From contig NZ_JAQVEJ010000001.1 of NCBI RefSeq assembly GCF_028698005.1, positions 1 through 60,236 on the forward strand: 60,236 bases of DNA, in the 5' to 3' direction. The notes under the pieces are model-generated. The model saw nothing but the letters and a program-made list of their open reading frames with translations, had not been told where the DNA came from and did not search any database. Source of the stretch: Hydrogenophaga sp. Lineage in GTDB: Bacteria; Pseudomonadota; Gammaproteobacteria; Burkholderiales; Burkholderiaceae_C. Below are positions 28,908 to 32,535 of this stretch, in pieces. Position 1 is the stretch's first letter, and each line of letters starts with the position of its first letter. The translations under genes were made by a program, and so were the position numbers.

Positions 28908-29648
28908 ATGTTCGCCCCCATCCGCGGCTTCACCAGCGTGCAGCGCACGCCGGAGGCGGATCTGCGGCTGGGCACGGTGCTGGCCTTCGTGGCCGGCGCC
29001 GCCAACGCCGGCGGCTTTCTGGCCGTGGGGCAATACACCTCGCACATGACGGGCATCGTCTCTTCGGTGGCCGACAACCTGGTGCTGGGCCAGATGGCGC
29101 TGGTGCTGGCCGGCCTGGGGGCCTTCCTGGCTTTCCTGCTCGGCGCGATGACCACCGCCTGGACGGTCAACTGGGGCATGCGGCGCCATCTGCGCAGCGC
29201 CTATGGCCTGCCGCTGATGATCGAATCCCTCCTGCTGCTGGTCTTCGGGCTTTTCGGCGCCGCCATCAGCCAGCAGGTCGCCATCCTGCTGCCGGCCACC
29301 GTCATCCTGCTGTGTTTCATCATGGGCCTGCAGAACGCCGTCATCACCAAGATCTCCAGGGCCACCATCCGCACCACCCACGTCACCGGCCTGGTCACCG
29401 ACCTGGGCATCGAACTGGGCAAGCTGCTGTATGTGAACCAACGGGCCGGTGCCGCACCGGTGCTGGCCGACCGGCGCCGGCTGCACGTGCACATCCGCCT
29501 GATCATCGCCTTCTTTGGCGGTGGCGTCGCCGGTGCCCTGGGCTTCAAGGCCTTCGGCTACATCAGCACCGTGCCGCTGGCCATCGCCCTGCTGCTGCTG
29601 GTGCTGCGCCCCGCACTGGACGATTGGCGGCGCCTGCACGCCAACTGA
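28908..29648 (+). CDS. YoaK/DUF1275 family membrane protein
   Basis: Hydrophobic; FVAGAANA..TSHMTG and FIMGLQNA..TTHVTG..TDLG motifs. Confidence 0.85.
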   Translation: MFAPIRGFTSVQRTPEADLRLGTVLAFVAGAANAGGFLAVGQYTSHMTGIVSSVADNLVLGQMALVLAGLGAFLAFLLGAMTTAWTVNWGMRRHLRSAYGLPLMIESLLLLVFGLFGAAISQQVAILLPATVILLCFIMGLQNAVITKISRATIRTTHVTGLVTDLGIELGKLLYVNQRAGAAPVLADRRRLHVHIRLIIAFFGGGVAGALGFKAFGYISTVPLAIALLLLVLRPALDDWRRLHAN

Positions 29649-29737
29649 TCCCCCGCGCCGAAGGTGGCGGCAGGCAGATCATGCCGCGGCGCTTACCACG
29701 TTTCGCCCTTGGCCGTTGCAGGCGGTAACATTGACCC

Positions 29738-31381
29738 ATGTCGATGAATCTCCCGCCCCTGGCTTCCTTCAGACCACGACTGCTGGCCGACCTGCGCGGC
29801 TACACCAGGGAGCGTCTCGGCAAGGACATCGGCGCGGGCGCCACCGTCGGTATCGTGGCCCTGCCCCTGGCCATGGCCTTTGCCATTGCATCAGGCCTCA
29901 AGCCCGAAGCCGGGTTGTGGACGGCCATCATTGCCGGCTTTCTCATTGCCGTCCTGGGCGGCACCTCGGTGCAGATCGGCGGGCCGGCCGGCGCCTTCAT
30001 CGTCATTGTCTACGGCATCGTCGAGCGGTACGGCGTCGCCAATCTGCTCATCGCCACCGCCAGTGCCGGCGTGCTGCTGTTCCTCATGGGCCTGTTCCGA
30101 CTCGGTTCCCTGGTGCGCTACGTGCCGGTGAGCGTGGTCATCGGCTTCACCAACGGCATTGCCGTGCTGATCGGCCTGTCGCAACTGCGCGACCTGCTGG
30201 GCCTGCAGATCGAGAAGATGCCGGCCGATTTCTTCAACCAGATCGGCACCGTGGCCCGACACATCCAGGACCTCAACCCCTGGGCCTTCGCACTGGGTGC
30301 CCTGTGTGTCATCGGGCTGTTCATCTGGCCGCGCCTGTGGTCGGTCGACTCGCAGTTCCGCCGCCAGCTCGACCAGCTCGAAGTGGTCTCGGCGCTGCGC
30401 GCCACCTCGCGCCTGCCGGCGCCGGTGGTGGCGCTGGTCACACTCACCCTCGCCGCCTGGCTGCTGGAGCTGCCGGTGGAGACCATCGGCACCCGCTTCG
30501 GTGGCATTCCGCAGTCGCCGCCGGCCTTCACGCTGCCCGATTTCTCCTGGGAAACGGTGCGCCTGCTGGTCACGCCCACACTCACGCTGGCCATCCTCGG
30601 CGCCATCGAGTCGCTGCTGTGCGCGCGCGTCGCCGACCAGCTCAGCAACACCCCCAAGCACGACCCCAACCAGGAGCTCATGGCGCAGGGCGTGGCCAAT
30701 GCCGTCGTGCCCTTCTTCGGCGGCATGCCGGCCACCGGCACCATTGCGCGCACCGTCACCAACATCCGTGCCGGTGCCACCTCGCCGATCGCCGGCGTCG
30801 TGCATGCGCTGACGCTGGCCGTCGTGGTGCTGGCGGCGGCACCACTGGCGCAGCACATTCCGCTGGCCGTGCTGGCCGGCGTGCTGCTGTTCGTGGCCTG
30901 GAACATGGGCGAATGGAAAGAATTCGCCCGCCTGCGCCACTTCAGCAACCACTACCGTCTGATGATGGTGTCCACCTTCCTGGTCACCATCGTGTTCGAC
31001 CTGACCGTGGCGGTGGAGCTCGGCCTGGTGCTGGCCTTCGTACTGTTCGTGCGGCGCCAGAGCAACATCTTCCGCGTGGACCCGGTCTCCCGGGACGGCC
31101 GGCAGGTGGTCTACCGGCTGTACGGATCCCTCTTCTTCGGCGCCGTGGCCAAGATCGACCCGCTCACGGCCGAGATGGAGTGGGCCCCCCCGGGCACGCA
31201 TCTGGTGCTCGACGCCAGCCACCTCATCTCGCTGGACACCACCGGACTGGACGCGCTCGAGCAGTTGCAGCAGACGCTGGAAAAGCGCGACGGCAAGCTC
31301 AGCATGACCGGGCTCAACGAGCAGCCGCTGTCGCTGATACGGCGCTCCGGCTTCGCACAGAAGCTCCACCCCGGCCTCTGA
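29738..31381 (+). CDS. SulP/SLC26 inorganic anion transporter with STAS domain
   Basis: VALPLAMAFAIASG, QIGGPAGA, ESLL, NQELMAQGVAN, PATGTIART, C-terminal YGSLFFGA..LDTTG. Confidence 0.93.
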   Translation: MSMNLPPLASFRPRLLADLRGYTRERLGKDIGAGATVGIVALPLAMAFAIASGLKPEAGLWTAIIAGFLIAVLGGTSVQIGGPAGAFIVIVYGIVERYGVANLLIATASAGVLLFLMGLFRLGSLVRYVPVSVVIGFTNGIAVLIGLSQLRDLLGLQIEKMPADFFNQIGTVARHIQDLNPWAFALGALCVIGLFIWPRLWSVDSQFRRQLDQLEVVSALRATSRLPAPVVALVTLTLAAWLLELPVETIGTRFGGIPQSPPAFTLPDFSWETVRLLVTPTLTLAILGAIESLLCARVADQLSNTPKHDPNQELMAQGVANAVVPFFGGMPATGTIARTVTNIRAGATSPIAGVVHALTLAVVVLAAAPLAQHIPLAVLAGVLLFVAWNMGEWKEFARLRHFSNHYRLMMVSTFLVTIVFDLTVAVELGLVLAFVLFVRRQSNIFRVDPVSRDGRQVVYRLYGSLFFGAVAKIDPLTAEMEWAPPGTHLVLDASHLISLDTTGLDALEQLQQTLEKRDGKLSMTGLNEQPLSLIRRSGFAQKLHPGL

Positions 31382-31403
31382 ACGGGACCGGTGGGGAGAT
31401 GAC

Positions 31404-32486
31404 ATGCCGACCACGGTCCATCACCGCCCCATCCAGGAACGCATCGACTGGCTGTTCGACCTGGCGCACCGCCACGCGGGCGAATACGCCAGCCCCGAGG
31501 CCTGGCTCGCGCGCCAGCGCTACCTGGCCAACCACCCCACGGCCATCCTGGTGCTCAAGTGCATGGACGGCCGCATCAACATCCCCGTGGCCACATCCAC
31601 ACCCAAGGGGATCATCCTGCCGTTCCGCAACCTCGGCGGCATCTTCCACCTCGGCTGGCCACACCTGGGCGAAACGCTGACCGCCGCGGTCGGCAAGGTG
31701 GTCGGCAGCGGCCGCCAGGCCCTGCTCATGATCACCTACCACTATTCCCGAGGGGACGAGCGCCGCGGCTGTGCCGGTTTCCATTACCGTACCGCCGACG
31801 CCCGGGCCCACACCTTCGGCATCCGCGCCGAGGTCTCCTCCCTGTTCGGTGCCGATCACGGCACCGTCTACCCACTGGTCTGCGGCTTCGAGACCGACGA
31901 GGAAGCCCTGGTGCTGCATGGCCACAACGGCCAGGTCCTGTCCATGGCGAACGTGGGCGCAGCAGACCTGCCAGGCCTGCCGGCACGCCTGCAACAACTC
32001 CTGCCCGACATGCCCGCCCGCATGCGGTCCGACCTGCTGCCCCTGCTCGACGGCAACCTGGCGCACATCCTGGCCCTGCGGCAGACCGAGCGTGCGCTGG
32101 ACATCGAGCACCGCGAATGGATGATCTGCGTCGGCCGCGGCTTCGACTGGCTGCACCTGCCCAACGTCGCCCTGATCATCGGTCCGTACAGCCCCGACCT
32201 GGCCGATCCGATCCGCCAGGCGGCAGCCATCATCGAGGGCAACATGGCTTCCGGCCGCATCCCCTCCGACGGCTTCCTCATCCTGTCCTCCGTGCCCTAC
32301 GAGGACATCGGCGTCGACCGGGCCCGTGCCGAGCTCAAGTCCCGCTTCATGGCCCGGTTCGCTGCCGACGTGATCCGGCGCGATTTCCCCTCGCTGGCGC
32401 CCGGAATGACCGTACGCGAGACCGTGCTCAACTGGGACAGCCGCTCGGTCGAACCCCTGCCCCGCACGTGCGCGCCGGACCGGTAA
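31404..32486 (+). CDS. CsoSCA-like (divergent beta-class) carbonic anhydrase, putative
   Basis: C53-x-D55-x-R57 (KCMDGR) and H113-x9-C123 (YHYSRGDERRGCAG); C-terminal HREWMICVGRGF..LHLPN resembles CsoSCA as recalled. Confidence 0.7.
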   Translation: MPTTVHHRPIQERIDWLFDLAHRHAGEYASPEAWLARQRYLANHPTAILVLKCMDGRINIPVATSTPKGIILPFRNLGGIFHLGWPHLGETLTAAVGKVVGSGRQALLMITYHYSRGDERRGCAGFHYRTADARAHTFGIRAEVSSLFGADHGTVYPLVCGFETDEEALVLHGHNGQVLSMANVGAADLPGLPARLQQLLPDMPARMRSDLLPLLDGNLAHILALRQTERALDIEHREWMICVGRGFDWLHLPNVALIIGPYSPDLADPIRQAAAIIEGNMASGRIPSDGFLILSSVPYEDIGVDRARAELKSRFMARFAADVIRRDFPSLAPGMTVRETVLNWDSRSVEPLPRTCAPDR

Positions 32487-32535
32487 AATCCCTGGTTCCC
32501 CCTCTGTTGGTCCCCAACTCCCTAGAGAGACGCGC

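What the first reader, a model, noticed from the sequence alone, without database searches (positions are those of the whole stretch)
28908..32486. YoaK/DUF1275 + SulP + CsoSCA-like carbonic anhydrase: candidate stand-alone inorganic-carbon/anion module
Seen: three co-oriented genes between metG and DUF3460-scpA, namely an uncharacterised membrane protein, a SulP/STAS transporter and, 22 nt later, a soluble protein with beta-CA-like zinc ligands. Known: SulP transporters (e.g. BicA) often pair or fuse with beta-CAs to move HCO3-, and DUF1275 has no assigned function. Inference: the trio forms a CO2/HCO3- (or related anion) uptake or pH module with DUF1275 as a second channel or accessory, inserted in an otherwise housekeeping locus. 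Caveat: DUF1275 lies 18 nt after metG and sulP seems to have its own -10 (TAACAT, 29726-29731), so co-transcription of all three is not established.
Basis: partly seen in the sequence, partly recalled or inferred. Interest (0 to 1): 0.8.

Follow-up and report, generated by a model that had tools for sequence, protein, structure and literature searches.

The report
Transporter with optional carbonic anhydrase add-on
The three genes are real but are not one module: an old anion-transporter gene carries an optional, often-lost neighbour that is predicted to be a carbonic anhydrase of a named but untested family (CsoSCA2), so the pair likely handles bicarbonate, while the first gene sits there only because an intervening gene was likely deleted.

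Summary
All three ORFs, both spacings and the TAACAT box are confirmed. The trio is not a module. It is contiguous in only 2 of 91 assessable loci of the genus (Hydrogenophaga, inferred). An opposite-strand lipoprotein gene lies directly upstream of sulP in 83 of 91. DUF1275 and the CA do not covary on the tree. No DUF1275 was found beside 167 CsoSCA2 loci outside the genus.

sulP is a long-standing resident (100 of 112 genomes), DauA-like rather than BicA-like, with its own conserved -10 box. The 360-aa protein is a compact CsoSCA2 (PMC9164163): all seven catalytic residues, CsoSCA fold, purifying selection, no carboxysome. It is complete in 20 of 112 genomes, directly behind sulP in all 18 assessable. 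Five more genomes hold remnants there, and 81 sulP genomes lack it.

Other SulP lineages also neighbour CsoSCA2 (10 of 80 metagenome loci), which favours a bicarbonate link. Best reading: a sulP-csoSCA2 transcript coupling H+/anion transport to CO2/HCO3- equilibration. Substrate and activity are untested. This scan noted CsoSCA2, once with SulP, on other DNA before. Modest interest.

The parts
28908..29648 (+). DUF1275/YoaK half-MFS membrane protein (246 aa, 6 hydrophobic segments); passenger at the 3' end of metG, not part of the sulP-CA unit
   Evidence: PF06912 E 2.7e-38; hydropathy; synteny
29649..29725 (.). Short spacer where relatives carry an opposite-strand BamE-domain lipoprotein gene (about 170-180 aa). 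Not present here; no orthologue found in G000, only a ~30% paralogue on C138
   Evidence: present in 83 of 91 assessable genus loci; nearest relative L001 has it
29726..29731 (+). TAACAT -10-like box 6 nt before the sulP ATG; predicted promoter of a leaderless sulP transcript
   Evidence: TAACAT-N5-9-ATG in 88 of 97 genus loci, the other 9 with near variants; not reported by the consensus scan
29738..31381 (+). SulP/SLC26 transporter with C-terminal STAS (residues 454-543), DauA/YchM-like; E291, C295, I336 and R338 as in E. coli DauA
31393..31398 (+). Shine-Dalgarno-like GGGGAG in the 22-nt sulP-CA gap; no promoter-like or terminator-like site there
   Evidence: sequence; scan
31404..32486 (+). 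CsoSCA2, compact non-carboxysomal CsoSCA-type beta-carbonic anhydrase (360 aa, no hydrophobic or signal segment); C53, D55, R57, H113, C123, H236, E238
32484..32489 (+). TAAAAT -10-like box overlapping the CA stop codon; predicted promoter of DUF3460-scpA, which bounds the unit on the right
   Evidence: a TA(A/G)AAT-type hexamer (one of 8 allowed) within 90 nt upstream of DUF3460 in 95 of 95 genus loci, with or without the CA; chance rate not computed

Best explanation
The functional unit is likely a two-gene transcript, sulP-csoSCA2, in which a genus-core DauA-like transporter likely moves an anion with protons and an optional cytoplasmic CsoSCA2 is predicted to equilibrate CO2 and HCO3-, while DUF1275 is a metG passenger likely made adjacent by loss of a lipoprotein gene.

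History (inferred): csoSCA2 was probably placed once, early in the genus, between the sulP stop and the DUF3460 promoter, and has since been lost many times.

Mechanism (inferred): SulP imports HCO3- with H+ (it may also carry C4-dicarboxylates), and the Zn enzyme converts it to CO2 for the form I and form II RuBisCO of this carboxysome-less genome. Run backwards, it hydrates respiratory CO2 to HCO3- and H+ for export and pH control. A freely reversible cytoplasmic CA would equilibrate inorganic carbon, not concentrate it, so this is a supply or pH aid and not a CCM.

Shown: genes, residues, predicted fold, synteny, loss pattern. Inferred: co-transcription, CA activity, transporter substrate and direction. 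Confidence in the architecture is about 0.85; in the bicarbonate link about 0.5.
For: CA identity: all seven H. neapolitanus catalytic residues listed in PMC9164163 have counterparts. The model (pLDDT 95.9) has CsoSCA structures as its five best Foldseek hits (TMq 0.70-0.73, E 1e-15 to 4e-14). dN/dS is 0.03-0.17 in 5 of 5 pairs.

Pairing: the full gene is in 20 of 112 genus genomes, 26-56 nt behind the sulP match in 18 of 18 assessable; 2 are cut by contig ends. Five more genomes have remnants at the same site. At least 11 state changes on the tree.

Own promoter box in 88 of 97 loci.

DUF1275 independence: contiguous trio in 2 of 91; DUF1275 without a CA in 35 of 91. In 9 independent pairs differing in CA, DUF1275 did not differ in about 8 (sign test p about 1).

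Recurrent SulP pairing: SulP-family genes lie near CsoSCA2 in 10 of 80 metagenome loci (about 1.3% expected), 4 of 56 other GTDB loci and 1 of 22 order-wide loci. They are only 23-32% identical to the window SulP and fall in several other branches. SbtA, alpha-CA and Chr also occur as neighbours.

Host: form I and form II RuBisCO, no BMC, no DabA. DauA/YchM is cited as carrying bicarbonate as well as dicarboxylates (PMC5703999, PMC6458275; passages).
Against: 81 of 100 sulP-bearing genomes lack a full CA, so sulP does not need it. None of 29 sulP loci from other genera has it within 1.5 kb. The SulP lacks the BicA Na+ site (D258/T262/T302 become E/C/I) and is closest to the dicarboxylate carrier DauA (38%, SH-aLRT 96). 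CA presence does not track RuBisCO (17 of 20 against 70 of 92, p 0.56). It does not replace canonical beta-CA (PF00484 in 105 of 112 genomes, two in G000). Most CsoSCA2 genes outside the genus have no SulP neighbour (0 of 9 phylum-wide loci, 21 of 22 order-wide loci). The 10 metagenome cases are partly related to each other (5 are one SulP type), so the enrichment is overstated. No terminator was found between DUF1275 and sulP, so read-through from metG in this strain is not excluded. The uncorrected DUF1275-CA association is significant (16 of 20 against 35 of 92, Fisher p 0.0009), and the tree test has little power.
Confidence: 0.55

Rival explanations
1. Positional hitch-hiking. SulP is a DauA-type C4-dicarboxylate/H+ symporter, and csoSCA2 is a stand-alone supplementary carbonic anhydrase that landed behind sulP and uses its promoter, with no shared substrate.
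For: DauA-like motifs and tree position. sulP kept without the CA in 81 genomes. CsoSCA2 elsewhere sits behind many unrelated genes, such as cysN, Fe-ADH, rlmB and nadE. One insertion plus losses explains the whole genus pattern.
Against: CsoSCA2 recurs beside several other SulP lineages, SbtA, alpha-CA and Chr more often than chance suggests. No relocated copy was found in the genus.
Confidence: 0.3
2. Sulfur link. CsoSCA2 acts as a COS (carbonyl sulfide) hydrolase, or supplies H+/HCO3- for sulfate uptake, with SulP as a sulfate carrier.
For: CsoSCA2 follows cysN in 12 Accumulibacter-type loci, lies next to sbp and/or cysK in 10 Dechloromonas-type loci and near FCSD in 5 loci. COS and CS2 hydrolases share the beta-CA fold and appear weakly in the profile search (E 0.004 and 0.019).
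Against: These are few lineages. Only 1 of 22 order-wide and 0 of 9 phylum-wide loci have cys/sbp neighbours. The window SulP is in the DauA branch, which PMC5840216 separates from sulfate carriers (passages). The COS-hydrolase hits are no better than those to ordinary beta-CAs.
Confidence: 0.07
3. One reading: DUF1275, SulP and the CA form one inorganic-carbon or anion module, with DUF1275 as second channel or accessory.
For: 16 of 18 assessable CA-positive loci also have DUF1275 in or near the locus. DUF1275 lies next to sulP in 5 of 29 loci from other genera, 2 of them divergent. No terminator between DUF1275 and sulP.
Against: An opposite-strand gene separates DUF1275 from sulP in 47 of 51 DUF1275-positive loci. 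The trio is contiguous in 2 of 91, and there is no covariation on the tree. DUF1275 was not found in 167 outside CsoSCA2 loci. In two genomes 9-10 kb of other DNA lies between DUF1275 and sulP.
Confidence: 0.06

Closest known systems
CsoSCA2, compact second variant (PMC9164163); the 'non-cso' orphan clade of PMC11086599
   Same: Same catalytic residues, CsoSCA fold, short two-helix N-terminus and about 350 aa, outside a carboxysome locus. PMC11086599 already notes neighbours such as hydrogenases and permeases.
   Different: Nothing at protein level. The fixed position behind a DauA-like sulP in one genus, with repeated decay, is not mentioned in the passages read. Fig. S15 of PMC11086599 was not seen.
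Carboxysomal CsoSCA (PDB 2FGY, 8THM)
   Same: Fold and active site.
   Different: About 18-19% identity, no long N-terminal domain, no shell genes in the genome.
SulP-beta-CA operons and fusions (Rv3273 type; clade C in PMC6458275, citing Felce and Saier 2004, not read)
   Same: An anion transporter gene directly beside a cytoplasmic beta-class CA gene.
   Different: Here the SulP keeps a STAS domain and is in the DauA/YchM branch, which that paper describes as not CA-associated. The CA is CsoSCA2, not a PF00484 Can-type enzyme, and the pairing is optional.
E. coli DauA (YchM)
   Same: 38% identity, best NCBIfam model, shared TM8 AIESLLC and TM10 IAR motifs, STAS domain.
   Different: Below the equivalog cut-off (448 against 614); different genomic context; substrate untested.
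BicA (PDB 6KI1)
   Same: SulP/SLC26 family with STAS.
   Different: 224 against a cut-off of 880 bits; Na+-site residues not conserved.

Membership tests
CsoSCA2 (compact variant) | Active-site residues C173, D175, R177, H242, C253, H397, E399 (H. neapolitanus numbering) | tested here: met
   C53, D55, R57, H113, C123, H236, E238
CsoSCA2 (compact variant) | CsoSCA fold with one active and one defunct domain | tested here: met
   Five best Foldseek hits are CsoSCA; a single CxDxR motif in the sequence; no second invariant Cys/His set
CsoSCA2 (compact variant) | N-terminal domain of only about 40 aa, two helices | tested here: met
   Model: helices 10-29 and 31-43, first strand at 47
CsoSCA2 (compact variant) | Encoded outside a carboxysome locus | tested here: met
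   Neighbours are sulP and DUF3460; no BMC in G000, 99% complete, with controls ringing
CsoSCA2 (compact variant) | Carbonic anhydrase activity (not yet shown for the family in the papers found) | not testable with these tools
   PMC9164163 calls them unstudied; PMC11086599 calls them uncharacterized
Carboxysomal CsoSCA | TIGR02701 cut-off, long N-terminal domain, cso operon | tested here: not met
   22.6 against 241 bits; 360 aa; no BMC. The PF08936 search was inconclusive because no control rang.
BicA | NCBIfam NF050096 cut-off | tested here: not met
   224 against 880
BicA | Na+ site Asp258/Thr262/Thr302 | tested here: not met
   Aligned residues are E291, C295, I336 (residues named in 10.1101/2022.06.08.495363; chain numbering offset by one)
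DauA/YchM | NCBIfam NF008660 equivalog cut-off | tested here: not met
   448 against 614; E. coli DauA control scores 1009
DauA/YchM | Groups with E. coli DauA and shares TM8/TM10 site motifs | tested here: met
   Sister group at SH-aLRT 96 in a 23-row quick tree with long-branch warnings and no BicA row; motifs shared
DauA/YchM | H+/C4-dicarboxylate transport | not testable with these tools
   needs a transport assay
SulP-beta-CA fusion/operon clade (Rv3273 type) | SulP adjacent or fused to a Can-type (PF00484) beta-CA in place of a STAS domain | tested here: not met
   Window SulP has STAS and the CA has no PF00484 hit; definition from PMC6458275
DUF1275 (TC 9.B.143) | PF06912 above cut-off; about 6 TM segments | tested here: met
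   132 against 25.4 bits; 6 hydrophobic windows
Three-gene DUF1275-SulP-CA module | Conserved contiguity and co-occurrence of all three genes | tested here: not met
   2 of 91 contiguous; no tree-corrected covariation; 0 of 167 outside loci with DUF1275

The most novel reading that the evidence does not exclude
CsoSCA2 is a plug-in carbonic anhydrase that has been recruited again and again to unrelated anion transporters (at least five SulP branches, SbtA, Chr). In Hydrogenophaga it turns a DauA-type carrier into a carboxysome-free bicarbonate-to-CO2 feed for RuBisCO, useful where dissolved CO2 is scarce, and is shed elsewhere.
Probability: 0.2. Interest if true: 0.6.

Novelty: new variant of a known kind. 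Interest (0 to 1): 0.3.

Why it matters
CsoSCA2 is widespread, named in 2022 and still without an activity assay in the papers found. This locus offers a natural test set: close relatives with intact, decayed and absent copies behind the same sulP, including named species records (L002 H. bisanensis, L017 H. palleronii). If the pair handles bicarbonate, it would settle a substrate for a DauA-like SulP that is common in Burkholderiaceae (76 of 150 sampled genomes, about one per genus) and give a first function to CsoSCA2.

Tried and rejected
Single-sequence searches of the CA against Pfam and PDB sequences found nothing; only the profile, the Atlas and the fold placed it.

Complex prediction of the STAS domain with the CA: no answer (score 0.00), not evidence either way.

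RNA runs: only assembled contigs of 4 of 24 listed runs were laid. They cover the stretch in pieces, may contain DNA, and say nothing on transcripts, strand or level.

The sigma-70 scan did not report either -10 box; support comes from conservation only.

CA as a replacement for canonical beta-CA: rejected. CA tracking RuBisCO: not seen. Recent horizontal insertion of three genes: rejected.

SulP columns linked to CA presence: no diagnostic column, not tree-corrected, not used. CA-SulP pairwise identity correlation (rho 0.57; with ScpA 0.28; 16 loci) fits co-inheritance, but the pairs are not independent.

Literature: the search with YoaK was swamped by unrelated words. DUF1275 alone gave 12 papers, and none of the four read in passages links it to inorganic carbon. 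CsoSCA2 gave 3 papers, 2 relevant. Hydrogenophaga + carbonic anhydrase + bicarbonate transporter gave 4 listings, none about this locus by title or abstract start. Supplements were not read.
Full report
OBSERVATION. Pfam gives DUF1275, Sulfate_transp + STAS, nothing for the third protein, then DUF3460 and ScpA. GC is level across the region. The nearest named relatives of the third gene are mostly Hydrogenophaga records (76-89% identity), so the window is taken to be of that genus (inference).

THE THIRD GENE. It has at least 2215 homologues among the 7995 candidates scored and 529 clusters at 50% identity. In 99 of them C53, D55, R57, H113, C123 and H236 are invariant and E238 nearly so. The profile finds CsoSCA structures first (2FGY, E 6e-17) and aligns these residues with the catalytic set, which PMC9164163 lists as C173, D175, R177, H242, C253, H397, E399 (section 4 read). 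The AlphaFold model (pLDDT 95.9) matches CsoSCA best (TMq 0.70-0.73) and has only two N-terminal helices. This is the compact CsoSCA2 of PMC9164163 (passages), also the 'non-cso' clade of PMC11086599, whose neighbours are given as hydrogenases or permeases (passages). Both papers call it unstudied, and PMC12646314 uses it only as an outgroup (passages). PMC4796919 reports a CsoSCA-like gene highly expressed in Accumulibacter after acetate contact (passages). dN/dS is 0.03-0.17 in five pairs. The genome has form I and form II RuBisCO and two canonical beta-CAs. No shell protein or DabA was found.

THE TRANSPORTER. The best NCBIfam model is DauA (448 against a cut-off of 614), then sulP (325/380) and BicA (224/880). 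It is 38% identical to E. coli DauA, shares its TM8 and TM10 motifs and is its sister in a quick 23-row tree (long-branch warnings, no BicA row). The BicA Na+ ligands are replaced. Published views differ: DauA is a C4-dicarboxylate carrier (PMC5703999, passages) and is also listed as a bicarbonate carrier (PMC6458275, passages). PMC5840216 groups the DauA clade apart from sulfate carriers (passages). The orthologue is in 100 of 112 genus genomes and in 76 of 150 family genomes, about one per genus, often still beside metG or DUF3460-scpA (29 non-genus loci read). It is a resident, not an insert.

SYNTENY IN THE GENUS. Of 112 genomes (at least 80% complete), 20 have the full CA and 51 the DUF1275 orthologue. 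I read 100 sulP loci; 9 were dropped because a contig end or the fetched flank hid a state. Among the 91 left, DUF1275/lipoprotein/CA patterns are: lipoprotein only 36; DUF1275 + lipoprotein 33; all three 14; none 2; CA only 2; DUF1275 only 2; DUF1275 + CA without lipoprotein 2. The last class is the window and L002. Two of the 14 have DUF1275 9-10 kb away. The intervening gene is a BamE-domain lipoprotein on the opposite strand. The window's sister L001 still has it, and G000 has no orthologue (281 contigs). So the contiguous trio is a by-product of a deletion. TAACAT-N5-9-ATG precedes sulP in 88 of 97 loci, and a TAAAAT-type box precedes DUF3460 in 95 of 95, so sulP and the CA lie between two conserved promoter-like boxes. 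Where assessable the CA is always directly behind sulP (18 of 18). Five genomes keep fragments there, and the state changes at least 11 times on a four-gene FastTree. One gain and many losses is the simplest reading; the counts alone cannot tell gain from loss, but the remnants show loss. The raw DUF1275-CA association is significant (p 0.0009) but vanishes in independent pairs (p about 1 and 0.6), a test with little power.

OUTSIDE THE GENUS. I examined 56 further GTDB loci, 22 order-wide loci (from 24 hits in 400 genomes; two weak hits not fetched), 9 phylum-wide loci and 80 metagenome loci (median 5.9 kb). That is 167 loci, a few of them the same genome twice. A tblastn with the window's DUF1275 found none; divergent members could be missed. 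SulP-family genes were found in 4, 1, 0 and 10 loci. They are 23-32% identical to the window SulP and fall in about five other branches. About 1.3% would be expected by chance, but several cases are kin. Other neighbours are SbtA, alpha-CA, Chr, Na+/H+ exchangers, PF00361 and hydrogenase-4-like operons, cys genes and many unrelated genes. The family leans toward inorganic-carbon and pH machinery without a fixed partner.

MECHANISM. Most likely sulP and csoSCA2 share a leaderless transcript. The transporter moves HCO3- (perhaps also dicarboxylates) with H+, and the cytoplasmic CA equilibrates CO2 and HCO3- behind it, feeding RuBisCO or aiding pH control. It would not concentrate carbon; PMC10880623 describes cytoplasmic CA as a leak risk (passages). 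The main rival is hitch-hiking behind a dicarboxylate carrier. A sulfur role and the trio are unlikely. Activity, substrate and co-transcription are untested; the RNA contigs and the complex prediction gave nothing usable.

DUF1275. It is a half-MFS family of unknown function (PMC7778945, PMC8154325, PMC12316277; passages), found elsewhere beside oxalate-catabolism genes (PMC3720670). It neighbours sulP in 5 of 29 other-genus loci, so a link to SulP alone is not excluded, but nothing ties it to the CA.

VERDICT. Observation confirmed; the three-gene module is not supported; the two-gene pair is real but optional. It is a variant of known SulP-CA pairings with different partners. I did not find this pairing in print in searches, though subscription papers and supplements (notably fig. 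S15 of PMC11086599) were not seen. Interest 0.3.

Noticed in passing
L035, L040, L042, L044, L053, L058, L060, L063, L066, L068, L069, L070; L033, L047, L049, L052, L059, L061, L062, L075, L077, L123: CsoSCA2 directly follows cysN of the tauE-cysI-DUF934-cysH-cysD-cysN operon in Accumulibacter-type loci, and lies next to sbp and/or cysK (mostly divergent) in Dechloromonas-type loci.
   Followed up: partly
L110, L112, L118, L122, L129, L038, L326, L327; L116, L119, L124, L256-L300 (many): CsoSCA2 at the end of hydrogenase-4-like operons or of operons with two or three PF00361 membrane subunits; matches the remark in PMC11086599 and earlier scan notes.
   Followed up: partly
L026, L027, L028, L030: Cluster of Usp, CsoSCA2, alpha-CA (in two), a SulP-STAS-Usp protein of about 810-860 aa, Chr and FCSD in Thiobacillus/Gallionellaceae-type loci.
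   Followed up: partly
L001:3728-4249 (-) and 82 other genus loci: Conserved lipoprotein-like protein of about 175 aa with a BamE domain, divergent from sulP; a conserved AGTGTAAACCC in the shared spacer reads as a TACACT -10 box on the minus strand.
   Followed up: partly
L255, L295: Tandem pairs of CsoSCA2 genes.
   Followed up: no
L111:8519-9502: SbtA gene convergent with CsoSCA2, with a LysR gene upstream of the CA.
   Followed up: no
L129, L130, L131, L276; L132-L136: Frameshifted, truncated or internally deleted CsoSCA2 genes in several lineages.
   Followed up: partly
P0123: A 704-aa protein whose first 354 residues match CsoSCA2; possible fusion.
   Followed up: no
L017, L019: Type I restriction-modification (HsdM) genes inserted between DUF1275 and the lipoprotein gene, moving DUF1275 9-10 kb from sulP.
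   Followed up: no
L236, L242: More distant DUF1275 genes (53-55% identity) divergent from the sulP orthologue in two other genera.
   Followed up: no
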